Source: Escherichia virus TH15. From it: a DNA stretch of 64,000 nt. The stretch lies in sequence record MT446392.1; one strand, written 5' to 3'. Both the position numbers and the translations under genes were made by a program. Numbering within the stretch: position 1 is the stretch's first letter; each line of letters begins with the position of its first letter. This document shows positions 1,151 through 49,366 of this stretch, in pieces. A model generated the notes under the pieces. It made no database searches and was not told the DNA's origin. It worked only from the letters and a program-made list of their open reading frames with translations.

Positions 1151-1226
1151 CGAGGCATAGCTCAGAAGGAAGAGCAAGGACCTTCTAAGTCCTAGGTCGT
1201 AGGTTCGATTCCTACTGTCTCGACCA
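1151..1226 (+). tRNA. tRNA-Arg, anticodon TCT
   Basis: Acceptor CGAGGCA/TGTCTCG, D-arm AGCTCAG, anticodon stem AGGAC/GTCCT loop CTTCTAA, T-arm GTAGG-TTCGATT-CCTAC, CCA. Confidence 0.85.
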
Positions 1227-1540: not shown

Positions 1541-1571
1541 AAGCCCCTCCCGAAAGGTTGGGGCTTTTTTA
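1541..1571 (+). terminator. rho-independent terminator after tRNA cluster
   Basis: GC stem AGCCCC/GGGGCT then T6. Confidence 0.6.
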
Positions 1572-1577
1572 TAAATA
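1570..1577 (+). promoter_or_regulatory. T4-type late promoter TATAAATA
   Basis: Exact TATAAATA ~27 nt upstream of ATG 1604. Confidence 0.45.
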
Positions 1578-1603
1578 TAACGTACCCATAACTAAGGAAA
1601 TTT

Positions 1604-2158: not shown

Positions 2159-2162
2159 TCGA

Positions 2163-2186
2163 ACCCGCTCCGGCGGGTTTATTTTT
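2163..2186 (+). terminator. rho-independent terminator
   Basis: Stem ACCCGC/GCGGGT then T-rich run. Confidence 0.55.
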
Positions 2187-2205
2187 AATATTTCTTCAAA
2201 AAGTA

Positions 2206-2235
2206 GTGTACATCCGGATTGACCGGGTGCATAAT
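2206..2235 (+). promoter_or_regulatory. T4-type early promoter
   Basis: -35 GTGTACA, 17-nt spacer, -10 CATAAT; A-rich upstream. Confidence 0.6.
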
Positions 2236-2285
2236 GATTCCATACTGAGTTACACACTGAATCACAAAAACTTTGGAGAAATAAA

Positions 2286-2711
2286 ATGAACTTTCTGACC
2301 CTGACCTCTGCATTCTCTGTTACCCGCATCACTAACAAAATGGTTGCTGATGAAGTATGTGAAATCTGCATTCGTGAAGATGCACTTATCCATCTGACTT
2401 CAACCCAAATTGTTGCCATCGCCAAGTCCCTTAATTCTGAACTGAAGGTAAACACCAAACAGTCAAAAGAATCCATCATTGAATTAATCCAAGCTGAAAT
2501 GATTGAATTCCCAATTGAAGAAGTTAAAGAAGAAAAAATCCAGTCCAAATCTGGTAACGCCCGTGACATTTGCTTCCAGGCATTTGCAGAAATTGATATG
2601 AATGATAATGCAGCTCGTCGCGCTCTGATTGATGACCTGGTTACTACCCATGATATCAAAAAGACTGTTGTTCAGTCTTATGCTTCCAACTTCCGCAAAG
2701 CTCAAAAATAA
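2286..2711 (+). CDS. hypothetical protein (paralog of 2795..3238)
   Basis: 141 aa; C-terminal NxAARRALID...VQSYASNFRK shared with next gene. Confidence 0.6.
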   Translation: MNFLTLTSAFSVTRITNKMVADEVCEICIREDALIHLTSTQIVAIAKSLNSELKVNTKQSKESIIELIQAEMIEFPIEEVKEEKIQSKSGNARDICFQAFAEIDMNDNAARRALIDDLVTTHDIKKTVVQSYASNFRKAQK

Positions 2712-2722
2712 TTGAGAAAAGT

Positions 2723-2752
2723 GTTTTACTTCCAAGTGGGATAGTGTATAAT
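2723..2752 (+). promoter_or_regulatory. T4-type early promoter
   Basis: -35 GTTTTACT, -10 TATAAT, followed by conserved leader. Confidence 0.55.
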
Positions 2753-2794
2753 TATCCCATACTGAGTTACCAAATAAACAAACGGGATAATAAA

Positions 2795-3238
2795 ATGAAA
2801 ACTTCAAAACTGGTTAAGTACGTTAAACTGGCATTAAACAACTCTTCTGAAGCTGAAGCGCAATCCGCAGCGCGTATGTTCTTCAAACGTCTGACAGCTG
2901 AAGGTATTTCATTTAACCCGGCAGTATTTGGTATCACTCGTGGCGAAGCTGCTAAACTGGCAACTCTGGCAGGTAAAATTTTTAAAGGTCTGAATGATGG
3001 ACAGGTTAAACCAGAAGTTAAACCTACTCCTAAAGCTGAACCAAAAGCTGAGTGTAAGGCACCTAAACGCTCCGGTATGAGCAACAAAGATTTATGCTAT
3101 GATATGTTCAAAACTGTTAATATGTCTAATGGTGCTGCTCGCAGAGCTGTTATTGATATGATTGTGCGTGAGTTTGGATTCAACAAAGCATCAGTTCAAT
3201 CTTATGCTTCCAACTTCCGCAAAGAATTTGAAATTTAA
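2795..3238 (+). CDS. hypothetical protein (paralog of 2286..2711)
   Basis: ATG at 2795 after GGGATAATAAA; track ATG 2744 lies inside promoter. Confidence 0.6.
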   Translation: MKTSKLVKYVKLALNNSSEAEAQSAARMFFKRLTAEGISFNPAVFGITRGEAAKLATLAGKIFKGLNDGQVKPEVKPTPKAEPKAECKAPKRSGMSNKDLCYDMFKTVNMSNGAARRAVIDMIVREFGFNKASVQSYASNFRKEFEI

Positions 3239-3245
3239 TTCAAAA

Positions 3246-3265
3246 AGGGGGTATACAAGCCCCCT
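3246..3265 (+). terminator. GC hairpin (terminator-like) containing a promoter -35
   Basis: Stem AGGGGG/CCCCCT, 8-nt loop holding GTATACA. Confidence 0.5.
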
Positions 3266-3280
3266 GCTTTAAGGCATAAT
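3251..3280 (+). promoter_or_regulatory. T4-type early promoter embedded in hairpin
   Basis: -35 GTATACA in hairpin loop, 17-nt spacer, -10 CATAAT. Confidence 0.55.
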
Positions 3281-3319
3281 GATTCCATACTGAGTTACCA
3301 AATAAAACTGGAGAATAAA

Positions 3320-3625
3320 ATGAAATTCATCATCAACCTGGCGCTTGTTGACTTTGATAAAACTGGTAATTTCGCATCTGCTGAAAATATGATTCGCAAC
3401 ACTAAGTTCAAAGTGCAAGTCCAGCAGGCGGTAGCAAAAGAGTTCTTTACTGATAAATTAACCCACGTTGTCAATCACCTGAATGTGCAAGTTAAATTCA
3501 CTCGTAAAGCAGAAACTACAGTTGAATTTGATTTTGAATGTCGTTACCATGATGAATATGTTCGCCGCATCCTTAATATTGTATCTGATGAACTTTACTA
3601 TGGTGTGCAGGAAAACAAAATCTAA
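3320..3625 (+). CDS. hypothetical protein
   Basis: 101-aa ORF with GGAGAATAAA SD. Confidence 0.55.
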   Translation: MKFIINLALVDFDKTGNFASAENMIRNTKFKVQVQQAVAKEFFTDKLTHVVNHLNVQVKFTRKAETTVEFDFECRYHDEYVRRILNIVSDELYYGVQENKI

Positions 3626-3629
3626 ATCA

Positions 3630-3659
3630 GTGTACGCTTTAACGGGAACATGATAGTAT
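3630..3659 (+). promoter_or_regulatory. possible early promoter
   Basis: -35 GTGTACG, 17-nt spacer, weak -10 TAGTAT; overlaps 8-bp inverted repeat GGGAACAT/ATGTTCCC. Confidence 0.35.
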
Positions 3660-3701
3660 GTTCCCTGGATAATAAAACATTAACCAACTGAAGGAAATAC
3701 C

Positions 3702-4295
3702 ATGAATACTTTAAAGAAACTTGTTGAATTCATCCGCTCCAAACTGGGTACTGCAATGGCACAAAACCTGTCTATTGAAGACCAATATACTAAAGCGGCA
3801 ACAACCCTGATTGACAAGATTACTGAGCTCCAGACTGCCCACGTTAAGTCTGTTAATGAAGAAAAACGCATCCGCGAGTTAGCGAATGAAAAAGACCAGC
3901 TCGCTGCTTCAAAAGAGCGTGAAATCCGTAAACTGATTGCTGATGGTGCTGATGTTCAGGTCCATGCTAAACTAGGTCTCCTGTATCGCCACACGGCTAA
4001 ACAACTTCGTAAGAAGGCAGATGATTATGTTGAAATGCGTAATGAAATTAAATTGAAAGTTAAAGAGCTGGATGATTCTCGTCAGGAACTAGCTGTTAAA
4101 CTGGAATACATCCGCGAAACTCGTAAGGTATCTGCCCTGGGTATTGCGACTGCAGATGATGTTGTTGAAATCGCTGCATTGACTAAGATTGATATTGAAG
4201 ACACTCTGATGCGTGTTGAAACCTTCAAAGGCCCACAGGTTGGTGTGGATACCACATCCGCTGACATTGAAGAATACATCAATTCACTTAAGTAA
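3702..4295 (+). CDS. hypothetical coiled-coil protein
   Basis: 197 aa, charged heptad-rich sequence, AAGGAAA SD. Confidence 0.6.
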
Positions 4296-4301
4296 GATAA
4301 A

Positions 4302-4318
4302 AGGGGGCTTTGCCCCCT
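4302..4318 (+). terminator. GC hairpin, weak terminator
   Basis: Stem GGGGGC/GCCCCC loop TTT; no strong T-run. Confidence 0.4.
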
Positions 4319-4338
4319 AATTGGGAGAGGAGAATATT

Positions 4339-4893
4339 ATGACTTCATACGATAATCTTATATCAAATGTAGAATGGTTTGGCGGCAGTGGTCTTGCCAC
4401 TGAAACTAATACAGTTCTTTATAGAATCCGTGGTGACCTAGGTTATTCCAATGATTTCTTAAGAAGAACAACTAGTCGGGGCGATACTACCAAATTACCT
4501 TTTATTTTTGCTTTGGCTGAAGACCTTTCTTTCGCAGATGCCTTGGAAATTATTGACGTGAATCTGGGCATTCAACGAGTGGAATTCGCTGGACTACGTT
4601 ATTCAGTGTATGCATTAAACGACCCTAGCGATTATAGACAACTTATTGATGCAGACGATGATTATCATTTAGTGTGTTATTTGATGTTAGAAAATGGTGA
4701 CCACTTTGGAATGGTTGACCGCCGTCCAACTTACTCTGATATTAAAAATTATGATAAAGATGAGCTTACTATTTTGGCTGCTGAGTATACATCAGAGAGT
4801 CGTAAGCAACAACGGAAGCTTAATCGTTTTATTACTGAATGTCGTGAATATGCTAAAGGGGTTCAAAATGCGAACGCTATATCTGCCAAGTAA
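4339..4893 (+). CDS. hypothetical protein, C-terminal FITECR tail
   Basis: Track start 4321 is TTG; ATG 4339 after GGAGAGGAG SD. Confidence 0.55.
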   Translation: MTSYDNLISNVEWFGGSGLATETNTVLYRIRGDLGYSNDFLRRTTSRGDTTKLPFIFALAEDLSFADALEIIDVNLGIQRVEFAGLRYSVYALNDPSDYRQLIDADDDYHLVCYLMLENGDHFGMVDRRPTYSDIKNYDKDELTILAAEYTSESRKQQRKLNRFITECREYAKGVQNANAISAK

Positions 4894-5227
4894 ACCAGAA
4901 AAATTTGTATACGCGGACAAGATTGATAAAGACCTTATGCCTCCATTTGGAGCTTTGTCCATGTGCATCGTTGGGGTTATAATGATGGTGCTTTGTGGGG
5001 ATATGGATATCATTAGTGTCGGAGTCGCCTGGACACTAATAATCGCAACTCCTTTTATTACAGTCCTGAGTATGATTTTGATAAATGTGTGGCATCAAAA
5101 TCATATGAATAAAGGATATCGTGGACGAGTTAAAGAGTGGGAACAAAAATGTGTTTCCCTACAAAAAGAGCACAAAATTAAATGTGCAGAAGAATTTATC
5201 AAGGAGGTTCGCAATGGAACGGCCTAG
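4868..5227 (+). CDS. hypothetical membrane protein, C-terminal FIKEV tail
   Basis: ATG 4868 after AAAGGGG SD; hydrophobic helices; overlaps upstream gene end. Confidence 0.5.
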   Translation: MRTLYLPSKPEKFVYADKIDKDLMPPFGALSMCIVGVIMMVLCGDMDIISVGVAWTLIIATPFITVLSMILINVWHQNHMNKGYRGRVKEWEQKCVSLQKEHKIKCAEEFIKEVRNGTA

Positions 5228-10148: not shown

Positions 10149-10904
10149 ATGAATTATCTAAAAATATATGAATCTTTAATAGTATCTGCTATTAAAAGAC
10201 CTCTTACACAAGGATACACCGAAAAACATCATATTTTACCGAAATCGATGGGTGGTAATGATTCTATTGATAATTTAGTTACCCTTACCGCCCGTGAACA
10301 TTTTATTGCACACTTATTATTGGCAAGAATTTTTAAGAATCGCGAAATGTGGTCCGCTGCATATATGATGGCTTCAACAAGTCTAACTAACTCGGATAGA
10401 CATAGATGCTCGTCACATTTATATGAATTATTGCGTAAACAAGCGTCGGTATATAATTCAGGTGAAAATTCTCCAAATTGGGGAATAAAACGTTCTGAAG
10501 AAACACGATTAAAAATGTCAATTTCAAAAATGGGTATCAGGAATCCAATGTACGGTATTCCACAATGTTTGGAACACTCTCATAAAATTAGCCTTGGTGT
10601 TACCGAAGCTTTTAAAAATCCAGAAATGAAAGAACGCCACCGTCAAAGTGTTTCTGGAGAGAATAATGGGTTTTATGGAAAAAAACATTCCGAAAAAAGT
10701 TTGGAAAAACAGCGGAATACAAAACGGAAAGGATTTCCTTGGGACAATTATTTGGAATTGTACCCAATTTGGGTTTCATTAAATTGCCCCAAGCATCCAA
10801 CATTCACAAATGAACTTGTTAAATTGGGATACCCCAAAAAGAAGCTTGTTCGAATAGTGGAAGAGTTTAAAAATGAATATATTCGAAATGCTACGCATAG
10901 ATGA
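10149..10904 (+). CDS. HNH homing endonuclease
   Basis: HNH motif [31 protein letters not shown]; inserted between nudE and e. Confidence 0.8.
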
Positions 10905-14838: not shown

Positions 14839-15381
14839 ATGAAAAAAGTAATAGCCACTTTACTATTGACAGTTAGTATGTCTGCCCATAGCGTAGAGCC
14901 TACTTTCAGTAATGAACAGATGGAAAATCTTCAATATGCGTATGCATTTGGAGAACAGTTCCAGAAAAATGGTAAGTACAAAGAAAATCCGCACCAACAT
15001 AATGGTTTGGGATATATCATGGCTGGATTAACCTGGCAGGAAAGTTCTGCCGGGGTTAATACAGGATTAAATAAAGATAAGCATCATGCATATGGTATAT
15101 TCCAAAATTATCTTCCAACCGTGCGCGAGCGCGTAAAACAGGTTGGGTGGACAATGACAGATAAAGAAATAATCAAGATGATAAGCAAGAGAGAGAACAG
15201 TGCACGCTGGGCTTATATTGAGCTTTCATACTGGTTGAACATTCACAAGGGGGACATAAGAAAAACACTATCATCATATAACGCAGGGTGGAATGTGAAA
15301 GCTGGAAATACGTATGCTTCACAGGTCCTAGAAAAAGCTAACTACTTAAAATCACGAGGCCTATTAAAAACGGTGGATTAA
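14839..15381 (+). CDS. periplasmic lytic transglycosylase (SLT-like) with signal peptide
   Basis: Signal peptide MKKVIATLLLTVSMSAHS; motifs WQESSAG, AYGIFQ, SYNAGWN. Confidence 0.65.
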   Translation: MKKVIATLLLTVSMSAHSVEPTFSNEQMENLQYAYAFGEQFQKNGKYKENPHQHNGLGYIMAGLTWQESSAGVNTGLNKDKHHAYGIFQNYLPTVRERVKQVGWTMTDKEIIKMISKRENSARWAYIELSYWLNIHKGDIRKTLSSYNAGWNVKAGNTYASQVLEKANYLKSRGLLKTVD

Positions 15382-15741
15382 ATGGTAAGAGTCATAACTT
15401 TAGCCATAGGGTTAGTATTCAGCACGGGAGGAATAGCTTCAGTACAGAGCGATGATAATAATAGCATCATAGAATATGCAACGAGGACGGCCAAAGATTA
15501 TTGTGCATCAAGCAATGTGGATTGTGTAATCCAGTTTAGTGCCAAACTCACTGCTGCATATAAAGACGGTCAAAATGATGTTGAACACACTCTTATGAAA
15601 AAGAGTATTTTATCCAACAAATATGAAAAGAAACTATTTGAAATGGATTGTATTCTGTCGAGTGCCAAATATAAAGCGGCCTGCACCAGTATGGTTGACA
15701 GGTTAGTCGATTCCTATAACAGAGGATTGAACTCTAAATGA
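15382..15741 (+). CDS. hypothetical secreted protein
   Basis: 119 aa; hydrophobic signal-like N-terminus; several Cys. Confidence 0.55.
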   Translation: MVRVITLAIGLVFSTGGIASVQSDDNNSIIEYATRTAKDYCASSNVDCVIQFSAKLTAAYKDGQNDVEHTLMKKSILSNKYEKKLFEMDCILSSAKYKAACTSMVDRLVDSYNRGLNSK

Positions 15742-16202
15742 TTGTTAACTATATTAAGGGCGATATTGTCGCCCTTTTTCTCGAAGGAAACATCATAGCT
15801 CATGGCTGTAATTGTTTCCATACAATGGGTTCAGGCGTTGCTGGCCAACTGGCAAAGGCTTACCCAAAAATTTTAGAAATGGATAAGACATCAACTGAAT
15901 ACGGTTCCCGAGAAAAACTCGGTGATATGTCTATCGTTTTTAAACATAAACCAACTGGATTTGGTATGTGCTATAACCTTTATACCCAGTATGAACCGGG
16001 TCCAAATCTGGATTATGGTGCTTTAGTAAATTGCATGATAGAATTAAATCGACAAGCAGAATCCCTTTTGTTCAAGCCTGTGATTTATATTCCCAGGATT
16101 GGATGTGGTATTGCAGGTGGTGATTGGGATAAGGTTTCCCGGTTAATTGATATGTTTACTCCTGACATTGATTTGATAGTGGTGGATTATGAGTCAAACT
16201 AG
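15738..16202 (+). CDS. macro-domain-like protein (putative ADP-ribose binding/hydrolase)
   Basis: GDIV...GNIIAHGCN...GSGVAGQL and IPRIGCGIAGG resemble macro-domain motifs. Confidence 0.55.
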   Translation: MIVNYIKGDIVALFLEGNIIAHGCNCFHTMGSGVAGQLAKAYPKILEMDKTSTEYGSREKLGDMSIVFKHKPTGFGMCYNLYTQYEPGPNLDYGALVNCMIELNRQAESLLFKPVIYIPRIGCGIAGGDWDKVSRLIDMFTPDIDLIVVDYESN

Positions 16203-27966: not shown

Positions 27967-29043
27967 ATGCAAGATTATGGCCATTGGTCTGTATTTGAAG
28001 AAGTTGACATTAAAAATTATATTGGGTTTGTGTACGTGATTACATTTGAAGACGGTCGCAAATATGTTGGTGCTAAAAAGATTTGGAAACGAATCAAAGC
28101 AGCTCCATGCACATTCAAGCGCGGTCCCAAAAAAGGTTTTGAAGAATCTGATTGGAAAACCTACACATCCTCATCAAATGAGTTAAACTCAATTCTGGAA
28201 AATGGTATAAAGCCAAAAGAAATGATTATCATGGGTTGGTATCCAACTTGGGGTAAAACACTTATGGCTGAAATGGAAATGCAACTAGCTAATGATGTTT
28301 TGCGAGACCCAATGTGGCTCAACAAACAGATTGGTGGTCATTTCAACCCCAACTGTTTTGATGATTTGACTCAAGATGATATTGCTCGATGGATTGAATT
28401 TGACAAAGGCAATGAACATGTTAATTGGCCTGTGATGTATAAAATGGGTCAGAAAACTAAATATGTTAAACCTGACGAAGTTGAAAATTATTTGGCGAAG
28501 GGTTGGCAGTTTGGGCGTTCTCGTTCAGAAAAGCATGGAATAATTACCAATTGTTCTTCGTATAAAATTTGGGATTACCAGACTGATACGGAAGTTGAAG
28601 TCGTTAACCAAACCGAGTTCGCGCAAGAAAATGAAATCTCTGCAAGTCATTTAACCAGACTGTTACAGGGTGATTTAGACCTAATTCAGGAACGTTGGGG
28701 CTTACCTCCGACCATTGCACGACAAAGATACAAATTTGCTTTGGCTGATGATAGTGTAAAATTTATATCGAACGCTGATGTTGAACAATATTTTGGTGTT
28801 GGTCGCGGTGGTTGTGCAAAAATATTAAAAGATGGAAAAATTAAAAAGTTGGTCGTGGAAGACAAAAAATCGCATAAAGCAAAACTTGCAACCATGGATT
28901 TAGTCAAAACAGTTCGACATGAAAAAGTTTCACAAATGGAATTAAACTTTTTCAAAGATATGGTTAATCCGCTATCTCAAACTGAAAGAGATAACTTAAC
29001 AGTATGGCTCGAAAGCTATATACAGTATTTAAAAAACAACTGA
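27967..29043 (+). CDS. GIY-YIG homing endonuclease-like protein
   Basis: N-terminal IGFVYVITFEDGRKYVGAKK GIY-YIG-like motif; 358 aa. Confidence 0.65.
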   Translation: MQDYGHWSVFEEVDIKNYIGFVYVITFEDGRKYVGAKKIWKRIKAAPCTFKRGPKKGFEESDWKTYTSSSNELNSILENGIKPKEMIIMGWYPTWGKTLMAEMEMQLANDVLRDPMWLNKQIGGHFNPNCFDDLTQDDIARWIEFDKGNEHVNWPVMYKMGQKTKYVKPDEVENYLAKGWQFGRSRSEKHGIITNCSSYKIWDYQTDTEVEVVNQTEFAQENEISASHLTRLLQGDLDLIQERWGLPPTIARQRYKFALADDSVKFISNADVEQYFGVGRGGCAKILKDGKIKKLVVEDKKSHKAKLATMDLVKTVRHEKVSQMELNFFKDMVNPLSQTERDNLTVWLESYIQYLKNN

Positions 29044-36779: not shown

Positions 36780-36802
36780 GCCTCTTATTGAGGCTTCATT
36801 TT
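36779..36802. terminator. bidirectional terminator hairpin between convergent genes
   Basis: Stem GAGCCTC/GAGGCT(T)C with T-rich flank. Confidence 0.5.
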
Positions 36803-37501
36803 GCAGTTATCAAAATGCCAACGTTTCATATTAGCTGGTGTACCGACTACATTACAGTGTGGACACTGAATTTTGGGGTCCACCTTTTTCTTCCGGTTTG
36901 GATTGGATTTGCAGAATTGTCGGTGAGTGGATATAACACACTTTTTACCTTCAATACCACAAAATTCACAAGTTAAAATTTCATGTTTAGCTTGTTTTAA
37001 TCCTACTGAAATTTTTTGCTTTCGTTCTTCTGAAATAGTATGAACAACCTTGTTTGGACCTTTGGAACAGTTATCAAAATGCCAACGATTCATATTGCCA
37101 ACGAGACCGGTTTTTCCACAATGTGGACATTCAACTCTCGGTTTTAATTTGGCAGATTCTGACATTTTCTTTCTGGTTTCATCGGAGAAAATTTTATTTT
37201 GTTGAGCTTCCAAGTTTTTACGACGAAGCCATCCAAATAATTTGTTTTTGCTTCTGTCGGTGTTTGGTGCAGAAACTGTCATCATGCGTGCGGCATAGAC
37301 CAAAGAAGCATTATTTGGATGCATTTTGACCAACAGTTGATGACAAACGAAATGTTCCTCGGGAGTTAAATCAACAAGATTTGAAGCGTCGTCTGCCCCA
37401 CCCATACAACGGGGTATAATGTGATGACTTTCAGAGTATGTGGTTAATTTGCGATTCAATGCTCTGCTAATAAGCTTTTGGTAAATGATGTTATAATTCA
37501 T
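36785..37501 (-). CDS. HNH homing endonuclease with zinc-finger repeats
   Basis: SESHHIIPRCMGGADDASNLVDLTPEEHFVCH plus repeated CPHC...WHFDNC; start at internal ATG with AAGGG SD. Confidence 0.7.
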   Translation of the reverse strand: MNYNIIYQKLISRALNRKLTTYSESHHIIPRCMGGADDASNLVDLTPEEHFVCHQLLVKMHPNNASLVYAARMMTVSAPNTDRSKNKLFGWLRRKNLEAQQNKIFSDETRKKMSESAKLKPRVECPHCGKTGLVGNMNRWHFDNCSKGPNKVVHTISEERKQKISVGLKQAKHEILTCEFCGIEGKKCVISTHRQFCKSNPNRKKKVDPKIQCPHCNVVGTPANMKRWHFDNCKMKPQ

Positions 37502-37541
37502 ATCAGACCCTTGTTTGATACTGCAACGGATAATATTATTT

Positions 37542-41324: not shown

Positions 41325-41693
41325 ATGATTGAAATTACATTAAAGCAACCTGAAGACTTCCTGAAAGTTAAAGAAACTCTGACCCGTATGGGCATCGCAA
41401 ATAATAAAGACCGTGTGCTGTACCAGAGCTGTCACATCCTCCAAAAGCAAGGTCGTTACTATATTGTTCACTTCAAAGAAATGCTGCGCATGGATGGCCG
41501 CCAGGTGGATATTGATGGCGAAGACTATCAGCGCCGTGATTCCATCGCTCAACTGCTCGAAGACTGGGGCTTAATCGCTATCAAAGAAGAAGAGCATAAT
41601 GAATTGTTCGCAGTAACAAATAACTTCCGTGTTATCTCATTCAAACAAAAAGACGACTGGAAGCTCGTGGCCAAATATACAATTGGAAATTAA
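41325..41693 (+). CDS. regA: translational repressor RegA
   Basis: MIEITLKQPEDFLKVKETLTRMGIANNKD... near-identical to T4 RegA. Confidence 0.9.
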   Translation: MIEITLKQPEDFLKVKETLTRMGIANNKDRVLYQSCHILQKQGRYYIVHFKEMLRMDGRQVDIDGEDYQRRDSIAQLLEDWGLIAIKEEEHNELFAVTNNFRVISFKQKDDWKLVAKYTIGN

Positions 41694-41694
41694 T

Positions 41695-41913
41695 ATGAAT
41701 ACTGAAATTAAACAAGAATTGATGAATGACATTAAAGTTGCTTATGGATTGACTGAAGACCAGACCGTATTTGACCTTGATGAAGATTTACAGCTAGAAT
41801 TCCAAAAAGAATTTGAAAGGGCTGTTAATCCAAACTGCAAAGTTTTCCAAGCCGTTATTAAAACTATTACATCCGAAGGCGTAAGGTATACTCGTCATGC
41901 GGTAGAAATTTAA
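41695..41913 (+). CDS. hypothetical protein
   Basis: ATG 41695 overlapping regA stop. Confidence 0.5.
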   Translation: MNTEIKQELMNDIKVAYGLTEDQTVFDLDEDLQLEFQKEFERAVNPNCKVFQAVIKTITSEGVRYTRHAVEI

Positions 41914-41916
41914 AGC

Positions 41917-41937
41917 AAAGGGACTTCGGTCCCTTTT
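41917..41937 (+). terminator. rho-independent terminator
   Basis: Stem AAAGGGAC/GTCCCTTT loop TTCG. Confidence 0.6.
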
Positions 41938-41998
41938 GTAGTATAATAGCGTCAAGTCATAAAACAAAAGTCAATCACTCGACTATAAAGGAAACCAA

Positions 41999-43522
41999 AT
42001 GCAAGAATTTTATTTAACTATCGAACAAATCGGTGACAACCTGCTCGAACGGTACATTGACAAGAATGGTCATGAACGTGTTCGTGAAATCCCTTATGCT
42101 CCATGCTTGTTTATGCATGCTCGCGAAGACCAGGCTGCAAAGTATACAGACATCTATAATAAAGGTTGTGTGAAAAAAGAATTCGATTCCATGCGTGATG
42201 CATCCCAGTGGATGAAGCGCATGAACGATATGGGCCTCGAAGCTATGGGTATGGACGATTTCAAACTCGCGTACCTGAGCGACCGTTACCCACATGAAAT
42301 CAAATACGATTCAAGTAAAATCCGTGTGGCTAACTTCGATATCGAGGTGACATCTCCTGATGGGTTCCCTGAGCCGTCTGAAGCACGTCACCCTATCGAT
42401 GCCCTGACGCACTATGATTCGGTAGACGATAAATTCTATGTCTTTGACCTTTTGAGCTCGCCATACGCCACTGTGGAGCAATGGTCTATTGATATTGCTG
42501 CTAAGCTGCAGGAAGATGGCGGTGATGAAGTCCCCGAAGAAATCCTGGAAAAAATTGTTTATATGGCTTTCGATTCAGAAGAAGAAATGCTCCAGCAGTA
42601 TTTGGTATTCTGGAACGAGAAAACTCCGGTTATGTTAACTGGTTGGAACATCGAGAAATTTGATATTCCGTATATCTACAACCGCATTAAAAATGTATTT
42701 GGTGAAGCTACGGCCAAACGTCTGAGCCCACATCGTCGTACAAAAGTTAAAGTCATTAACAACGGCTTTGGTGAAGAACAAGAAATCATTCAGATTCTGG
42801 GTATCTCTGTTCTGGATTATCTGGACCTGTACAAAAAGTTCAGCTTCACAAACCAACCGTCTTACTCGTTGGACTATGTTGCGGAATCTGAGCTGGGTGT
42901 TGGTAAACTTCCGTATGATGGCCCGATTTCTAAATTACGTGAATCCAATCACCAGCGATACATCAGCTATAACATCATTGACGTTTATCGTGTTGTGCAG
43001 ATTGACCGTAAGCGACAGTTCATTAACCTGAGCCAATCGATGGGTTATTATGCAAAGATGCAGATTCAGTCTGTATTCAGCCCAATCAAAACTTGGGATG
43101 CGATTATCTTTAACAGTCTGAAGACTCAAAACAAGGTTATCCCTGAAACCAAATCACATGTTCGTCAATCGTTCCCTGGTGCATTTGTTAAGGAACCGAT
43201 TCCGAACGCATACAAATATGTAATGAGCTGTGACTTAACATCTCTGTATCCGAGCATCATCCGACAGATTAACATCAGTCCAGAAACGATTGCCGGGTCA
43301 TTTGCACCAGCCCAGATGCACGAATACATCGCAGGAACTGCTGACCGTCCATCTGATGCATTTAGTTGTGCGCCAAATGGTATGATGTATTTTAAAGATG
43401 TTGCGGGTATTATTCCGACAGAAGTTGAGAAAGTTTTTAATCAACGAAAAACCGAAAAGAAAAAGATGTTGGCGGCACAACGTAATAGTGAATTGATTAA
43501 AGAAATTTTACATGGAAAATAA
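41999..43522 (+). CDS. 43: DNA polymerase gp43, N-terminal fragment
   Basis: 507 aa: 3'-5' exonuclease region and pol motif A (DLTSLYPSII); ends where the endonuclease gene begins. Confidence 0.9.
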   Translation: MQEFYLTIEQIGDNLLERYIDKNGHERVREIPYAPCLFMHAREDQAAKYTDIYNKGCVKKEFDSMRDASQWMKRMNDMGLEAMGMDDFKLAYLSDRYPHEIKYDSSKIRVANFDIEVTSPDGFPEPSEARHPIDALTHYDSVDDKFYVFDLLSSPYATVEQWSIDIAAKLQEDGGDEVPEEILEKIVYMAFDSEEEMLQQYLVFWNEKTPVMLTGWNIEKFDIPYIYNRIKNVFGEATAKRLSPHRRTKVKVINNGFGEEQEIIQILGISVLDYLDLYKKFSFTNQPSYSLDYVAESELGVGKLPYDGPISKLRESNHQRYISYNIIDVYRVVQIDRKRQFINLSQSMGYYAKMQIQSVFSPIKTWDAIIFNSLKTQNKVIPETKSHVRQSFPGAFVKEPIPNAYKYVMSCDLTSLYPSIIRQINISPETIAGSFAPAQMHEYIAGTADRPSDAFSCAPNGMMYFKDVAGIIPTEVEKVFNQRKTEKKKMLAAQRNSELIKEILHGK

Positions 43523-44210
43523 ATTGCATTTTGTGTATAAAATTACAAATAACATTAATGGTAAAATTTACATCGGTGTTCACAGCACCGATGATATTAA
43601 TGATGGATATTTGGGCAAAGGTACTTTAATTCAGAAAGCTATTAAAAAATATGGGAAATCTAATTTTAAAAAGGAAATTTTGGAATTTTTCGAGGACCGC
43701 ACTTCAGCCTTTGACAAAGAGCGAGAGCTTGTAACCAGAGAATTTGTCAGTTTGACAACAAACTATAATTTAAAAACTGGCGGCGAAGGTGGTGCAATGT
43801 ATGGTAAAACCAATCCGATGTATGGTCGAACATATAGGAAGTCGGAATCAGAGAAGACCCAAATTTCGTTGCGATTTAAAAATGTTCCCAAAACCAACCA
43901 GCACAAACAAAACCTATCCAATTCATTACTCGGTAAACCCAGACCGGACATCGCTGAGAGACAGCGCGGATTGTTACCCTGGAATGTTAATTCTATTCGC
44001 AATAACAAAACCAGACTAAGAAAATTCGCCGACCTGGATATTATTTTCGATTATTGGTCTAGTCATAAATGTGGTGTTAAAGCATTAGCGAATTGGTATC
44101 AACTGGCGACGTATAATGAATTAGCATCCGTTATGCGATTCATTAAAAAGTATGGTGACCCGCGACTGAATGGTGATTGGAAAAAATTTAAGGCTGACTA
44201 TGAATATTGA
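43512..44210 (+). CDS. GIY-YIG homing endonuclease inserted in gene 43
   Basis: N-terminal HFVYKITNNINGKIYIGVHS GIY-YIG motif; overlaps both polymerase ORFs. Confidence 0.75.
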   Translation: MENKLHFVYKITNNINGKIYIGVHSTDDINDGYLGKGTLIQKAIKKYGKSNFKKEILEFFEDRTSAFDKERELVTREFVSLTTNYNLKTGGEGGAMYGKTNPMYGRTYRKSESEKTQISLRFKNVPKTNQHKQNLSNSLLGKPRPDIAERQRGLLPWNVNSIRNNKTRLRKFADLDIIFDYWSSHKCGVKALANWYQLATYNELASVMRFIKKYGDPRLNGDWKKFKADYEY

Positions 44211-45375
44211 TTATAATGCTGATTTTACAGAAGAACAAATCGAATACTTAAAAACTTTGTCTAAAGATGAATTGGAACACCATTTATACAATTCTCAAAT
44301 GGCTGAAGTAGCTGCAAACACCGCGCAGATTAACCGTAAACTGCTTATCAATAGCTGTTATGGTGCTCTGGGCAATATCTGGTTCCGTTACTTTGACCTG
44401 CGAAATGCAACTGCGATTACATCTTTCGGGCAACTTGCATTGCAGTGGATTGAGCGTAAAGTTAACGAATACTTCGATAGTGTTTGTGGTACAAGTGGTG
44501 AGACTTACGTATTCTATGGCGATACTGACTCCATTTATATCCAGTGCGATAACCTGATTAAAAAGGTTGGTGGTGAATCTAAATTCCGCGATACAAACCA
44601 CCTGGTTGACTTCATGGACAAGTTTGCAAAAGACCGTCTGGAACCGGCAATTGATAAAGCTTTCCGTGAACTGGCCGAATACATGAACAATAAACAGCAC
44701 CTTATGTTTATGGACCGTGAAGCGATTGCATGTCCTCCGCTGGGTTCTAAAGGCGTGGGTGGATTCTGGACGGCGAAGAAGCGTTATGCGTTGAACGTGT
44801 ATGATATGGAAGGCACACGATATGCTGTTCCGAAACTGAAAATTATGGGTCTGGAAACTCAAAAGTCGAGCACTCCAAAAGCATGTCAGAAAGCTCTGAA
44901 AGAATGTATCCGTCGCATGCTGCAAGAAGGTGAAGAATCTCTGCAGACATACTTCAAGGAATTCAATAAGGAATTTAATGAGCTTAACTACATGACCATC
45001 GCAGGTGTATCATCGGTTAACAACATCCAGAAATATAATGAGGGCGGTTTCCCTGGATTTAAGTGCCCGGCTCATATCAAAGGTGTGCTTGCATATATGC
45101 GTGCAACTAAAGGGCTGAAGACTGTTCCGCAAATCATGGAAGGGGAAAAGGTGTATGTGCTTCCTCTTAAAGTTGGTAATCCGTTTGGCGAAACCGTGAT
45201 TGCGTGGCCATCAGGGATTGAACTCCCGATTGAAATTCGTGACCAAGTCTTGCAGTGGATGGACTACAACACACTGTTCCAGAAGACTTTTGTTAAGCCA
45301 TTGACAGGGTTCTCTGAAGCAGCTAAGGTTGATTACGAGAAAAAAGCATCTCTTTTTGATATGTTTGATTTTTAA
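44200..45375 (+). CDS. 43: DNA polymerase gp43, C-terminal fragment
   Basis: 391 aa: pol motif B KLLINSCYGALG and motif C YGDTDS; 507+391=898 aa, the length I recall for T4 gp43. Confidence 0.9.
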   Translation: MNIDYNADFTEEQIEYLKTLSKDELEHHLYNSQMAEVAANTAQINRKLLINSCYGALGNIWFRYFDLRNATAITSFGQLALQWIERKVNEYFDSVCGTSGETYVFYGDTDSIYIQCDNLIKKVGGESKFRDTNHLVDFMDKFAKDRLEPAIDKAFRELAEYMNNKQHLMFMDREAIACPPLGSKGVGGFWTAKKRYALNVYDMEGTRYAVPKLKIMGLETQKSSTPKACQKALKECIRRMLQEGEESLQTYFKEFNKEFNELNYMTIAGVSSVNNIQKYNEGGFPGFKCPAHIKGVLAYMRATKGLKTVPQIMEGEKVYVLPLKVGNPFGETVIAWPSGIELPIEIRDQVLQWMDYNTLFQKTFVKPLTGFSEAAKVDYEKKASLFDMFDF

Positions 45376-45377
45376 GT

Positions 45378-45407
45378 GTTTACAATGGCAAAGGATTGCC
45401 GTATGAT
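45378..45407 (+). promoter_or_regulatory. T4-type early promoter
   Basis: -35 GTTTACA, 17-nt spacer, -10 TATGAT. Confidence 0.5.
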
Positions 45408-45447
45408 TACTCCATCAATTACTGATGATTAACTTAAGGATATTAAA

Positions 45448-45690
45448 ATGGAAACATTAATTGCGGGTACTGTTGTTCTTGGTGCTGGTTCTTTCTTCTT
45501 GGCTGCACTGACCTATTTTCTACCGTGGATTATCGCGCTACTGCGTGGAACCAAAAGTAATTGCGGAATCTTCTTTGTTAACCTTCTGTTAGGTTGGACA
45601 ATGGTTGGGTGGTTTATTGCGTTTATTTGGGCACTCGTTGCTGAACGTAAATCAAACGCACAGTTAATTATCATCAAGGAAACCAAATGA
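45448..45690 (+). CDS. imm: small membrane protein, Imm-like
   Basis: 80 aa, two TM helices, adjacent to 43 as T4 imm; not sequence-verified. Confidence 0.45.
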   Translation: METLIAGTVVLGAGSFFLAALTYFLPWIIALLRGTKSNCGIFFVNLLLGWTMVGWFIAFIWALVAERKSNAQLIIIKETK

Positions 45691-45830
45691 AGATAATTAC
45701 AATTATTGTACTGATTGCATTTTTTAGTATGTCAATCTATTGGGCAATAATGACTCCGCATATGATTCCAACTTTAATTTTGGGTTGGATATTTTTGGGA
45801 CTCCAAGCCCGTTATGAATGTTTTAATTGA
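45687..45830 (+). CDS. hydrophobic small membrane protein (47 aa)
   Basis: ATGA overlap with imm-like gene; below track cutoff. Confidence 0.35.
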   Translation: MKIITIIVLIAFFSMSIYWAIMTPHMIPTLILGWIFLGLQARYECFN

Positions 45831-45840
45831 GGAAAATACA

Positions 45841-46344
45841 ATGAAAAAGTTAGCTATCGCAGCTGTTATGCTGCTATCTGGTTGTGCTTACCAGGGTGAT
45901 GTAGTTAATGTCAGTGAAATTGGTAAAGCGCGAATTGCTGCAGACCGTCAGGTGCATAATGGTTCCTTTGATTTCAAAGGTGGTACTGGGCTTATCTACA
46001 AACGCGACAATAGTCAGTGTGGAAATAACTGCGCGAAATATGCTCAACAAGAAATTGAGTACAAACGCGAGCAAGCTGCGAAGCATGATGAAGTAATCGC
46101 TAAATTAGAAGCAGAAACTAAGCGACAAAATGACTTGGATACTGTTAACCAGATTTCACAGGTCTGCATGTCTTACATCAATATGCAGATAAACATCATG
46201 CGCGCGGAAGCTTATCAGGCAGCGGAGACTGGTTCTCCAAAAGCCAATGAGTATCGCGATATGTATCAGCGTTCTGCTCAAAATCGTCTGAGCTATATTA
46301 ATAAATGTGTGGCTAAAGAGAAAGCCCGCCAAGGTATTAACTAA
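45841..46344 (+). CDS. putative lipoprotein
   Basis: ATG 45841 after TGAGGAAAA; signal peptide with lipobox LLSGC. Confidence 0.6.
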   Translation: MKKLAIAAVMLLSGCAYQGDVVNVSEIGKARIAADRQVHNGSFDFKGGTGLIYKRDNSQCGNNCAKYAQQEIEYKREQAAKHDEVIAKLEAETKRQNDLDTVNQISQVCMSYINMQINIMRAEAYQAAETGSPKANEYRDMYQRSAQNRLSYINKCVAKEKARQGIN

Positions 46345-47608: not shown

Positions 47609-47942
47609 TATCGATTTATCTGATTTAGATAATTTCGAGAAAGATGCGGAGGGAGCTAAGGCTCCTTCTGTGCCTTACTACGAAAAAAGTTTGGAGATTA
47701 TCCGGCAATCCATGGGAACTGTACGACAGGAAATTCTGTTATCACTTCCCGATGGGTCCAGTCACATCGTGTACGTAACCGGAATTAAAATTGAACCATC
47801 TGGAAAAGTTTCAGTTGATTTCGGCACCCCTTCTGAAGACCGCAAAGCGGAGCTTGCAGTGCATGTAGAAAAGTGTGTTACAATGCAAATACAAGATGAA
47901 ATTGATAAGATTAAAATGAAAAAGAGGTGGTGGAAGTGGTAG
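47601..47942 (+). CDS. 40: gp40-like protein
   Basis: Size and position between uvsX and 41 as T4 gene 40; ATG 47601. Confidence 0.5.
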   Translation: MSDIDLSDLDNFEKDAEGAKAPSVPYYEKSLEIIRQSMGTVRQEILLSLPDGSSHIVYVTGIKIEPSGKVSVDFGTPSEDRKAELAVHVEKCVTMQIQDEIDKIKMKKRWWKW

Positions 47943-49366
47943 AAACTATTTTATCCCAGCTACTCTTTAACAAGGAATATTTTGTTAAAGTCTGGCCATA
48001 TCTGAATAATACATATTTTGAAAAGGGTCCTGCGAAGACCCTTTTTAATACGATTAACGAACATGTAAAAGAATATCAAGCAGTGCCAACTAAGACTGCA
48101 CTTGATATCGCGCTCGACGGTTCTGACCTTTCTGAAGTTGAATATGAAGGCACAAAGAAACTCTTAGGAGTCCTGGCCGATACTCCAGAAGACCAGGAAT
48201 GGTTGGTCAGAGAAACCGAGAAGTATGTACAGAAGTCTGCGATGTTCAATGCCACATCCAGGATTATCGAAATCCAGAGTAATGCCGAACTTCCGAAAGA
48301 TAAGCGTGATAAACGAATCCCGGATATCGGGGCTATCCCTGACATTATGCGCGATGCATTGTCTATTTGTTTTGACTCTGCTCTGGGCCATGACTGGTTA
48401 AACGATTACGAAGCTCGATTCCAGACTTATCTGAACAAATCGAAGAAAGTTCCGTTCCGTATTAACATCCTGAATAAAATTACGAAGGGTGGAGTTGAGT
48501 ACGGTACAGAGAACGTTTTACTAGCCGGGACAAACGTCGGGAAATCCCTTGGACTCTGTTCATTAGCCGCTGACTATCTTCAGACTGGTCATAACGTTCT
48601 TTATATAAGCATGGAAATGGCTGAAGAAGTATGTGCCAAACGTATTGATGCCAACTTGCTGGATGTGTCTCTGGATGATATTGATGAAGGTCATATATCA
48701 TGGGCGGAATATAAAGCTAAGATGGAAAAATGGCGTGCTTCCGGGACTCTCGGGACTCTGAAGATAAAACAATATCCAACTGGGGGCGCGCATGCGGATA
48801 CCTTCCGTGCATTACTGAACGAGTACAAACTGAAGCAAGGATTTGTACCAGATGTGATTATTGTTGACTACCTGGCAATCTGCGCAAGCTCAAGACTGAA
48901 AACGTTTACCGAAAACAGTTACGGCCTGATTAAGATGGTTGCAGAAGAACTTCGTGGTCTGGCGGTCGAGAAAAATGTGGTCCTATGGACCGCGGCGCAG
49001 ACAACCAGGGGCGCGAACGTTGCAGCTGAGATTGATATGGCTGACATCGCAGAATCCTTTGGTATTGCTCACACGGCTGACTTTATGTTGGGTGTTGTTG
49101 AGACCGAAGAATTCGCTCAAATGGGACTGCAGTTAATCAAACAGCTTAAGTCTCGTTATGGCGATAAGAACTACTATAATAAATTCAAGATGGGTGTTAA
49201 GAAAGGTAATCAACGCTGGTATGAGGTTGATGATGATTCAGCTCCTAAACAAGGCCCTACGGTGAAAGAAGCCACTGGTGAGATGAATCGTCAGGCTGAA
49301 ATGAATAGACAAACCAGGGTCAACAGGAGCGACCTGGATGACCTTGCCGCTCAAATGAAATTTTAA
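47936..49366 (+). CDS. 41: replicative DNA helicase gp41
   Basis: DnaB-like; Walker A AGTNVGKS; GTG at 47936 gives MVETILSQL matching T4 MVEIILSHL. Confidence 0.9.
   Translation: MVETILSQLLFNKEYFVKVWPYLNNTYFEKGPAKTLFNTINEHVKEYQAVPTKTALDIALDGSDLSEVEYEGTKKLLGVLADTPEDQEWLVRETEKYVQKSAMFNATSRIIEIQSNAELPKDKRDKRIPDIGAIPDIMRDALSICFDSALGHDWLNDYEARFQTYLNKSKKVPFRINILNKITKGGVEYGTENVLLAGTNVGKSLGLCSLAADYLQTGHNVLYISMEMAEEVCAKRIDANLLDVSLDDIDEGHISWAEYKAKMEKWRASGTLGTLKIKQYPTGGAHADTFRALLNEYKLKQGFVPDVIIVDYLAICASSRLKTFTENSYGLIKMVAEELRGLAVEKNVVLWTAAQTTRGANVAAEIDMADIAESFGIAHTADFMLGVVETEEFAQMGLQLIKQLKSRYGDKNYYNKFKMGVKKGNQRWYEVDDDSAPKQGPTVKEATGEMNRQAEMNRQTRVNRSDLDDLAAQMKF

What the first reader, a model, noticed from the sequence alone, without database searches (positions are those of the whole stretch)
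41999..45375. DNA polymerase gene 43 split into two ORFs by a free-standing GIY-YIG endonuclease gene
The PolB polymerase is encoded as an N-terminal ORF (41999..43522, exonuclease region plus motif A DLTSLYPSII) and a C-terminal ORF (44200..45375, motifs B KLLINSCYGALG and C YGDTDS). A 232-aa GIY-YIG endonuclease ORF (43512..44210) sits between them and overlaps both by about 10 nt. The two fragments sum to 898 aa, the length I recall for T4 gp43, and the break aligns without loss of residues, so either the polymerase works as two polypeptides or the pieces are rejoined post-transcriptionally. The ORF overlaps leave no obvious room for a structured group I intron core. Split gene 43 has been reported in some T4-related phages, but the insertion site between motifs A and B deserves confirmation.
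Basis: partly seen in the sequence, partly recalled or inferred. Interest (0 to 1): 0.7.

Follow-up and report, generated by a model that had tools for sequence, protein, structure and literature searches.

The report
Mobile endonuclease cassette splitting phage DNA polymerase
In this T4-like E. coli phage the replicative DNA polymerase gene is cut in two at the tip of the "fingers" by a selfish GIY-YIG homing-endonuclease cassette; this layout is already known from an Aeromonas phage, so it is a rare but not new kind of finding, here in a host that is easy to work with.

Summary
There are three intact ORFs in three frames: 43A (41999-43522, 507 aa), a Seg-type GIY-YIG endonuclease (43512-44210, 232 aa) and 43B (44200-45375, 391 aa). 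Each junction overlaps by 11 nt.

No intron, intein or stable RNA structure is present. Rfam found the introns in phage 25 and G2285, which served as positive controls.

It is not a simple insertion. An 875-nt cassette (43451-44325) replaces 213 nt of the uninterrupted gene 43 of the closest relatives (VR26, SP18, VR7). The cassette holds the last ~20 codons of 43A, the endonuclease gene and the first ~40 codons of 43B. Identity to VR26 is perfect right up to both edges.

The same cassette occurs in at least 3 Gaprivervirus backgrounds and one Dhakavirus-type background, from independent assemblies. All three ORFs are under purifying selection.

The break falls in the same alignment column as in the split polymerases of Aeromonas phage 25 and Acinetobacter phage 133, and at the corresponding position in E. 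coli phage G2285 (RB69 residues N505-L514).

The most likely mechanism is a two-subunit polymerase plus endonuclease-driven gene conversion. I class it as a new member of a known kind (seg43(25), Petrov 2010), of moderate interest.

The parts
41999..43522 (+). Gene 43A. It encodes the N-terminal polymerase subunit (507 aa): N-terminal and exonuclease domains, palm motif A (43232-43261) and the first fingers helix. That helix carries the equivalents of RB69 R482 and K486 (NQRKTEKKK, 43439-43465).
   Evidence: ORF list. Pfam PF03104 and PF00136. Alignment to RB69 PDB chains. dN/dS 0.04-0.07.
43512..44210 (+). Free-standing Seg-type GIY-YIG homing endonuclease gene (232 aa). It has an I-TevI-like catalytic domain (aa 1-95), a NUMOD3-like linker and an uncharacterised helical C-terminal domain (aa ~170-232).
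   Evidence: Pfam GIY-YIG/SegE. PHROG 314 'homing endonuclease', E 1e-45. An AF2 model whose N-terminal domain matches I-TevI 1mk0/1ln0 at probability 1.0. dN/dS 0.12-0.16.
44200..45375 (+). Gene 43B. It encodes the C-terminal polymerase subunit (391 aa): second fingers helix with motif B (44338-44373), palm motif C (44515-44532) and the thumb.
   Evidence: ORF list. Pfam PF00136. The start aligns with the 43B starts of phage 25 and Acj133 and matches that of G2285. dN/dS 0.01-0.03.
43451..44325 (+). The mobile cassette (gene-conversion tract), 875 nt. It contains the 43A tail (43451-43511), the endonuclease gene and the 43B head (44211-44325). It replaces 213 nt of the uninterrupted allele.
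   Evidence: Identity to VR26 is perfect over 43145-43450 and 44326-44429 but 55% in between. The boundaries are the same in the Dhakavirus-type locus L025 compared with QL01.
43512..43522 (+). 11-nt overlap (ATGGAAAATAA): the endonuclease start codon lies inside the end of 43A. There is no Shine-Dalgarno sequence, and the start is GTG in L025.
   Evidence: Sequence. Conservation across 7 loci.
44189..44210 (+). Shine-Dalgarno sequence TAAGG (44189-44193), then the 43B ATG (44200), which overlaps the endonuclease stop TGA (44208-44210) by 11 nt.
   Evidence: Sequence. TTTAAGG is invariant in 7 endonuclease-carrying loci. The region is unstructured.

Best explanation
The window comes from a Gaprivervirus-type T-even phage of E. 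coli. Its gene 43 carries an 875-nt mobile cassette at the tip of the polymerase fingers subdomain. The cassette holds a free-standing Seg-type GIY-YIG homing endonuclease gene, flanked by its own versions of the 43A 3' end and the 43B 5' end.

What is shown:
- The cassette splits the PolB gene into two cistrons, both intact and strongly conserved.
- Close relatives either have it or lack it, with razor-sharp boundaries.
- It sits in several different genetic backgrounds and in two genera.
- There is no intron or intein.

What is inferred:
1. The polymerase works as a non-covalent gp43A-gp43B heterodimer. The two antiparallel fingers helices and the shared palm sheet hold the halves together. 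The dNTP-binding residues are then supplied by both chains (RB69 R482/K486 on 43A; K560/N564/Y567 on 43B).
2. All three ORFs are read from the gene 43 transcript. 43B starts from its own conserved Shine-Dalgarno sequence. The endonuclease is made at a low level by coupling to 43A termination, since its start is weak and lacks a Shine-Dalgarno sequence.
3. In mixed infections the endonuclease cuts the uninterrupted gene 43 of related phages near the fingers-tip coding region. Recombinational repair then copies the cassette in, together with its divergent and therefore cleavage-immune flanks (intronless homing).
4. The split itself is probably older than this endonuclease, because the same site is split with different contents in other lineages.
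For: Anatomy.

No re-joining mechanism:
- Rfam found nothing at E<=10 in 41500-46000, while the introns of G2285 (83.6 bits) and phage 25 (64.2 bits) were detected as controls.
- Folding z-scores at the junctions are +0.6 to +1.0.
- The three ORFs are in three frames.

Functional maintenance:
- dN/dS is 0.04-0.07 for 43A, 0.01-0.03 for 43B and 0.12-0.16 for the endonuclease.
- The endonuclease is 232 aa, and the 11-nt overlaps at both junctions are the same, in 7 loci from at least 6 samples.

Mobility:
- 66 related phage records all lack the cassette.
- Identity to VR26 is perfect up to 43450 and again from 44326, but 55% inside.
- Window and L027 are 98.9% identical in the cassette but only 94.7-95.8% in the flanks. 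L027's flanks are 98.2-98.5% identical to endonuclease-free VR26, and L026's flanks are 97-97.5% identical to endonuclease-free SP18.
- The same cassette, with the same boundaries, sits in a Dhakavirus-type genome whose isolate relatives are unsplit.

Same split site as a validated precedent:
- The A/B boundary falls in the same MAFFT column in phage 25 and Acj133, and G2285 breaks at the corresponding position in a direct sequence comparison (43A C-terminus ...IKEILASK, 43B N-terminus MNLTYTQDF...).
- The review PMC2988022 reports that split 43A/43B co-purify and have polymerase activity, citing Petrov et al. 2010.

Other points:
- Mapping to RB69 residues.
- The endonuclease has an I-TevI-like fold.
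- Expression signals: an invariant Shine-Dalgarno sequence precedes 43B, and there is no + strand late or MotA promoter motif inside the gene.
Against: - No biochemical or genetic data exist for this phage. Heterodimer formation, endonuclease activity and the cleavage site are all inferred by analogy.
- The endonuclease is only 40-46% identical to seg43(25) and to the G2285 enzyme, in the catalytic domain only, and its C-terminal domain is unrelated. Target specificity therefore cannot be transferred from those enzymes.
- The endonuclease has no recognisable ribosome-binding site or promoter, so its expression is conjectural.
- Sharp cassette boundaries could also arise from ordinary homologous recombination in the conserved blocks that flank a hypervariable region, with no endonuclease cut involved.
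Confidence: 0.8

Rival explanations
1. The two halves are re-joined into one polymerase by RNA splicing (a group I intron carrying the endonuclease ORF), by protein splicing (an intein) or by translational bypass.
For: Phage 25 and G2285 do carry a group I intron in gene 43B. T4 has intron-encoded GIY-YIG enzymes and a translational bypass in gene 60 (general knowledge).
Against: No Rfam hit appeared even at E<=10, although the same tool found both control introns. The junction RNAs fold no better than shuffled sequence. The endonuclease ORF fills the whole gap and overlaps both neighbours. The three ORFs are in three frames. There is no intein or Hint domain. 43B has its own conserved Shine-Dalgarno sequence and ATG.
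Confidence: 0.03
2. The split is a sequencing or assembly artefact, or gene 43 is a decaying pseudogene.
For: At least one phage record (Klebsiella phage CPRSB) shows a polymerase fragmented by frameshift errors.
Against: The same architecture is seen in at least 6 independent assemblies at 65-99% endonuclease identity. Start and stop contexts are clean. Both halves are under strong purifying selection. All catalytic motifs are intact.
Confidence: 0.02
3. This endonuclease created the split de novo. It transposed into an intact gene 43 of an enterobacterial T-even ancestor, and the divergent flanks are later adaptive or immunity mutations rather than imported sequence.
For: In every enterobacterial locus of this type the split and the endonuclease occur together. 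The review lists such 'transposition-like' insertions, for example mobE in nrdA and mobA in gene 39/60.
Against: The same site is split with other contents elsewhere: a seg43(25)-type endonuclease plus spacer plus intron in phage 25 and G2285, 2.9 kb of small ORFs in Acj133, and unrelated small genes in metagenomic lineages. The window's 43B head is 62% identical to that of G2285, which carries a different endonuclease. About 20 of the top 150 representative clusters are stand-alone 43B-type proteins.
Confidence: 0.15
4. The cassette spreads only by ordinary homologous recombination across a hypervariable fingers tip. The endonuclease is inactive or serves another role, such as excluding competitor phages, without promoting its own copying.
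For: The cassette edges coincide with highly conserved polymerase blocks (KVFNQRK and TAQINRKLLINS), which are natural crossover points.
Against: The endonuclease ORF is under purifying selection (dN/dS 0.12-0.16). The family-invariant residues Y9, Y20, E70 and N86 are retained. Presence/absence polymorphism with co-converted flanks is the classic signature of Seg/Mob homing (review).
Confidence: 0.1

Closest known systems
seg43(25) cassette in the split gene 43 of Aeromonas salmonicida phage 25 (Petrov, Ratnayaka & Karam 2010, J Mol Biol 395:457; summarised in PMC2988022)
   Same: The gene order is 43A, then a free-standing SegD-like GIY-YIG endonuclease, then 43B. The A/B break is in the same alignment column. 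The catalytic domains are 46% identical. According to the review, the split halves co-purify and are active.
   Different: Phage 25 has a 44-nt untranslated spacer with a stable hairpin, a 267-aa enzyme with a Zn-ribbon-like 'CPHC...RWHFD.C' C-terminus, and a group I intron in 43B. The window has no spacer (11-nt overlaps), no intron, a 232-aa enzyme with an unrelated helical C-terminal domain, and a different host group.
Escherichia phage vB_EcoM_G2285 (Mosigvirus, MK327933), gene 43 region annotated 'unable to determine intron/exon boundaries'
   Same: It is an E. coli T-even phage with 43A (506 aa), an endonuclease gene and 43B at the same site. Its 43B N-terminus is 62% identical to the window's over 47 aa.
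   Different: Its endonuclease is the seg43(25) type (277 aa). It has a 43-nt spacer with a hairpin and a group I intron (Rfam 83.6 bits). It is unique among 50,697 phage records.
Aeromonas phage 44RR and Acinetobacter phage 133 split gene 43
   Same: Acj133 breaks in the same column. 44RR is reported as split by an untranslated spacer only.
   Different: Neither has an endonuclease gene between the halves. Acj133 has about 2.9 kb with 9 small ORFs between them.
mobE in nrdA of Aeromonas phage Aeh1 (Friedrich et al. 2007 PNAS) and mobA in T4 gene 39/60
   Same: A free-standing homing endonuclease gene lies inside an essential replication or nucleotide-metabolism gene, giving 'genes in pieces' whose products reassemble into an active enzyme.
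   Different: These are HNH-family enzymes in different host genes.
I-TevI and the T4 Seg endonucleases (SegA-G)
   Same: They share the GIY-YIG catalytic fold (Foldseek probability 1.0 to 1mk0/1ln0), a modular catalytic domain-linker-DNA-binding domain layout, and intronless homing with co-conversion.
   Different: I-TevI is intron-encoded. The T4 Seg genes lie between genes, not inside one. Protein identity to any phage-record Seg is at most 44%.

Membership tests
Split PolB (gp43A + gp43B) of T4-related phages | The PolB gene is in two cistrons, breaking between motifs A and B at the fingers tip, at the same position as the described cases | tested here: met
   The break is in the same MAFFT column as in phage 25 and Acj133. 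It maps to RB69 N505/L514.
Split PolB (gp43A + gp43B) of T4-related phages | Both halves are intact, with all catalytic motifs, and are evolutionarily maintained | tested here: met
   Motif A is in 43A and motifs B and C are in 43B. dN/dS is 0.01-0.07.
Split PolB (gp43A + gp43B) of T4-related phages | [quoted passage not shown] | tested here: not met
   43A, the endonuclease ORF and 43B overlap by 11 nt each, so there is no untranslated spacer. G2285 and phage 25 have spacers of 43-44 nt.
Split PolB (gp43A + gp43B) of T4-related phages | gp43A and gp43B form a complex with polymerase activity | not testable with these tools
   Reported for the Aeromonas phage enzyme. Here it is only inferred.
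Free-standing GIY-YIG (Seg-type) homing endonuclease | A GIY-YIG catalytic domain with the conserved residues | tested here: met
   Pfam PF01541 and PF19835. PHROG 314. I-TevI fold. Y9, Y20, E70 and N86 are invariant in the family alignment.
Free-standing GIY-YIG (Seg-type) homing endonuclease | Not embedded in an intron or intein | tested here: met
   Rfam was negative while the positive controls were detected. No Hint or intein domain.
Free-standing GIY-YIG (Seg-type) homing endonuclease | Presence/absence polymorphism at one locus among close relatives, with co-converted flanks | tested here: met
   None of 66 related records carries it. The boundaries are sharp, and the cassette sits in at least 3 backgrounds and 2 genera.
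Free-standing GIY-YIG (Seg-type) homing endonuclease | Site-specific double-strand cleavage of the endonuclease-free allele and super-Mendelian inheritance | not testable with these tools
   Needs a cleavage assay and phage crosses.
seg43(25) orthologue | Full-length homology to the phage 25 enzyme, including the DNA-binding domain | tested here: not met
   Only aa 7-94 align (46% identity). The C-terminal halves are unrelated.
Group I intron with an endonuclease ORF | A catalytic intron core (P1-P9) flanking or containing the ORF | tested here: not met
   No RF00028 hit at E<=10. No excess RNA structure. No non-coding sequence is available.

The most novel reading that the evidence does not exclude
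The polymerase-coding ends of the cassette may not be passive hitch-hikers. These ends are the 43A tail ...KKKMLAAQRNxELIKEILxGK* and the 43B head MN(I/L)xY...YLK(T/S)LSKx(E/D)LE.HL. They could be a portable 'split adaptor' that makes a two-piece PolB viable. It would travel with whichever endonuclease occupies the site, and it would have seeded split polymerases across very distant T4-like lineages. An N-terminal L-S/T-x-x-E-L motif is present in 16/21 stand-alone 43B-type cluster representatives but in only 2/31 unsplit ones. It is also absent at that position from RB69, T4, VR26 and QL01. If this reading is right, it would amount to a naturally evolved, transferable split site for B-family polymerases.
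Probability: 0.25. Interest if true: 0.6.

Novelty: new member of a known kind. Interest (0 to 1): 0.4.

Why it matters
Split B-family polymerases with a homing endonuclease between the halves were characterised in Aeromonas phages. This locus brings the same layout into E. coli T-even phages (Gaprivervirus and Dhakavirus), which are much easier to manipulate.

Natural endonuclease-free partners are available that are 99-100% identical right up to the cassette edge (VR26, SP18, QL01). That makes three questions directly testable:
- how a replicative polymerase tolerates a break that puts its dNTP-binding residues on two chains;
- what the endonuclease cuts, and how far co-conversion extends;
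- whether the split or the endonuclease came first.

There is also a practical point. Annotation pipelines and phylogenies built on gp43 will mis-handle such genomes. G2285 is annotated only as 'unable to determine intron/exon boundaries'.

Tried and rejected
- **Exact-sequence look-ups** of the window's 43A, endonuclease and 43B products found nothing on record. The cluster table nevertheless shows an identical endonuclease (P0125) on a 171,591-bp NCBI contig, which could not be fetched.
- **IMG/VR scan** with the endonuclease found only relatives at 49% identity or less.
- **A 78-aa fingers-tip query** against the 5.8-billion-protein database returned only 5 fragments and cost one search.
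- **Klebsiella phage CPRSB**, with its 'three-piece' polymerase, is a frameshift-ridden assembly and is irrelevant.
- **The 'gp43A' literature hit** was actually 'gp43am'. Petrov 2010 itself is not held, so its content is taken from the review PMC2988022 and from my memory of the abstract.
- **Searches for endonuclease-specific expression signals** found nothing: no TATAAATA, no + strand MotA box inside gene 43, no hairpin sequestering the ribosome-binding site.
- **A Foldseek search** gave no solved match for the endonuclease's C-terminal domain.
- **The L-S-x-x-E-L motif** cannot be treated as proof of a single origin of split forms. Phylogenetic non-independence was not controlled, and 2 unsplit polymerases also carry it.
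Full report
**1. Observation**

The ORF list shows three intact ORFs on the + strand:
- 41999..43522 (507 aa);
- 43512..44210 (232 aa);
- 44170/44200..45375 (401/391 aa).

Pfam assigns the PolB exonuclease and PolB domains to the first ORF, GIY-YIG/SegE_GIY-YIG to the second, and PolB to the third. Motif A (DLTSLYPSII) lies in the first ORF. Motifs B (KLLINSCYGALG) and C (YGDTDS) lie in the third.

Both junctions are 11-nt overlaps, ATGGAAAATAA and ATGAATATTGA. The three ORFs are in three different frames. The two halves sum to 898 aa, which equals T4 gp43. The closest relatives have 904 aa, however, and about 6-7 residues are missing at the break.

**2. The host phage and the exact extent of the element**

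Megablast places the region in Gaprivervirus-type E. coli/Shigella phages (VR26, SP18, VR7 and others) at 94-95% identity. All 66 matching records have an uninterrupted 2715-nt gene 43, and none covers the middle of the query.

Alignment to VR26 shows that this is not a plain insertion. Homology stops at 43504 and resumes at 44296 by BLAST. Base by base, 306 nt are perfectly identical up to 43450. Differences then cluster from 43451 to 44325, followed by 104 identical nt. An 875-nt cassette therefore replaces 213 nt of the uninterrupted allele. The cassette contains the last ~20 codons of 43A, the endonuclease gene and the first ~40 codons of 43B.

**3. It is real, recurrent and mobile**

The 5.8-billion-protein search found full-length 232-aa relatives at 98% and 65% identity. 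The members of their clusters lie on contigs from at least six independent samples. Every locus fetched has the same 43A, endonuclease, 43B layout and the same 11-nt overlaps. One member is identical to the window's protein and sits on a 171,591-bp NCBI contig, presumably the source genome.

Cassette and flanks have separate histories:

| Comparison | Cassette identity | Flank identity |
|---|---|---|
| Window vs L027 | 98.9% | 95.8% / 94.7% |
| L027 vs endonuclease-free VR26 | not applicable | 98.2% / 98.5% |
| Window vs L026 | 91% | 95.3% / 95.5% |
| L026 vs endonuclease-free SP18 | not applicable | 97.5% / 97.0% |

A fourth host background is L025, a Dhakavirus-type genome. Outside the cassette it is 95% identical to QL01 and IME08, both of which are unsplit. 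It carries a 65%-identical endonuclease with the same cassette boundaries. Inside the polymerase-coding flanks, the window is 75-79% identical to L025 but only 50-62% identical to its own congener VR26. This is the pattern expected of a homing element that co-converts flanking sequence.

**4. Selection**

Nei-Gojobori estimates give dN/dS of 0.04-0.07 for 43A, 0.01-0.03 for 43B and 0.12-0.16 for the endonuclease, at dS values from 0.3 to saturation. Both polymerase halves and the endonuclease therefore encode functional proteins.

**5. No re-joining mechanism**

- A permissive Rfam scan (E<=10) of 41500-46000 found no intron. The same library found the group I introns of phage 25 (64 bits) and G2285 (84 bits), but nothing in L025 or L026.
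- The junction RNAs fold no better than shuffled sequence, with z-scores of +0.6 to +1.0.
- No intein domain was found.
- 43B has an invariant TTTAAGG Shine-Dalgarno sequence 6 nt upstream of ATG 44200 in all seven loci. The upstream in-frame ATG 44170 is closed by a stop in L025/L024.
- The endonuclease start has no Shine-Dalgarno sequence, is GTG in L025, and lies 11 nt before the 43A stop. This suggests low-level translational coupling (inference).
- No late-promoter TATAAATA and no + strand MotA box lies within the gene. All three ORFs are therefore probably read from the gene 43 transcript (inference).

**6. Where the break is in the enzyme**

Alignment to RB69 gp43 PDB chains puts the last 43A residues at RB69 H504/N505 and the first 43B residue at L514, with a 7-residue gap. 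The numbering is consistent, because motif B K560/N564/Y567 falls where expected.

From established RB69 structural work (Wang et al. 1997; Franklin et al. 2001; recalled from memory), residues 469-572 form the fingers, a pair of long antiparallel helices. R482, K486 and K560 bind the incoming dNTP. The break is thus at the distal tip of the fingers, and it distributes the dNTP-binding residues over both chains. I infer that the halves are held together by the helix pair and by the palm sheet, which takes motif A from 43A and motif C from 43B.

**7. Comparison with known cases**

The review PMC2988022 describes seg43(25). This is a segD-like free-standing endonuclease between 43A and 43B of Aeromonas phage 25, together with an untranslated spacer and a group I intron. 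Phage 44RR has the spacer only. The review also states that the split halves co-purify and are active, citing Petrov et al. 2010.

I fetched phage 25 and Acinetobacter phage 133. In a MAFFT alignment the A/B boundary falls in the same column in the window, phage 25 and Acj133.

A tblastn search with the 43B head then uncovered E. coli phage G2285, a Mosigvirus. Its polymerase region is annotated only as 'unable to determine intron/exon boundaries'. It actually has 43A (506 aa), a 43-nt spacer with a hairpin, a 277-aa seg43(25)-type endonuclease, and 43B interrupted by a group I intron. G2285 was not in the MAFFT alignment; its 43A end (...IKEILASK) and 43B start (MNLTYTQDF...) correspond to the same break by direct comparison. 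Its cassette is unique among 50,697 phage records.

The window's endonuclease shares only its catalytic domain (40-46% identity) with those enzymes and has an unrelated C-terminal domain. Its best match in any phage record is 44%. An AF2 model shows an I-TevI-like N-terminal domain, with Foldseek probability 1.0 to 1mk0/1ln0. The helical C-terminal domain has no solved match.

**8. Is the split older than this endonuclease?**

An exhaustive HMMER search with 43B found that about 20 of the top 150 representatives (clusters at 50% identity) are 350-391-aa proteins. They begin with Met at the fingers tip. Where context could be fetched, the genes upstream are unrelated small ORFs, not an endonuclease or 43A. 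This resembles Acj133, which has 2.9 kb of small ORFs between the halves.

Different occupants at one site, and homologous 43B heads next to different endonucleases (window vs G2285, 62% identity), suggest a particular history. The split-type ends probably predate this endonuclease, and in Gaprivervirus and Dhakavirus the split arrived together with the cassette.

One observation remains unexplained. An N-terminal L-S/T-x-x-E-L motif is present in 16/21 stand-alone 43B-type representatives but in only 2/31 unsplit ones. It is also absent at that position from RB69, T4, VR26 and QL01. This could reflect shared ancestry of a portable split module. It could equally be convergent helix capping of the new N-terminus. 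Phylogenetic non-independence was not controlled.

**9. Verdict**

The architecture is already known in kind (seg43(25) of phage 25). What this locus adds:
- a distinct Seg endonuclease in a compact form without spacer or intron;
- occurrence in enterobacterial T-even phages;
- precisely defined conversion-tract ends;
- population evidence for recent horizontal spread in two genera.

I class it as a new member of a known kind, of moderate interest. Its main value is as a tractable E. coli system for studying split-polymerase function and intronless homing.

Noticed in passing
window 10149-10904 (+): A 251-aa HNH endonuclease with three NUMOD3 motifs (Mob-like). It sits in a 728-nt window-specific insertion relative to VR26, next to the lysozyme e / nudE region.
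   Followed up: partly
window 27967-29043 (+): A 358-aa SegE-type GIY-YIG endonuclease (Pfam E 3e-33). It occupies about 1057 nt where VR26 has about 437 nt, near gene 49.
   Followed up: partly
window 36785-37504 (-), possibly to 37702: A minus-strand HNH-like ORF with repeated 'CPHC...G...NM.RWHFDNC' zinc-ribbon modules. The same module forms the C-terminus of the seg43(25) and G2285 endonucleases. It is absent from VR26 at this site but present in L025 and L027.
   Followed up: partly
L035 (Escherichia phage vB_EcoM_G2285, MK327933) 1104-4905: The deposited annotation leaves the polymerase unresolved. The region is actually 43A (1104-2624), a 43-nt spacer with a hairpin, a seg43(25)-like endonuclease gene (2668-3501), and 43B starting at about 3501 and interrupted by a group I intron (3637-3853). 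This is the phage 25 architecture in an E. coli phage.
   Followed up: yes
Escherichia phage PSD2002 (OK335775) 166533-166823: Its 'DNA polymerase' matches the G2285 intron region at 95% identity but lacks the endonuclease part. It may be an intron-only gene 43 allele annotated as one CDS.
   Followed up: no
43B-type proteins P0135-P0275; window 44257-44274 (LSKDEL): An N-terminal L-S/T-x-x-E-L motif is present in 16/21 stand-alone 43B-type representatives but in only 2/31 unsplit polymerases. Unsplit T-even enzymes have L-S-x-x-x-L there.
   Followed up: partly
VR26 record 47698-48462 (mobD), 15132-15803 (segF): VR26 carries mobD and segF at sites where the window has nothing. Homing-endonuclease content is reciprocally polymorphic between these close relatives.
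   Followed up: no
whole window: The MotA-box core TGCTTNA occurs 82 times against 51 +/- 7 expected from shuffles. This is consistent with T4-type middle promoters. None lies on the + strand inside gene 43.
   Followed up: no
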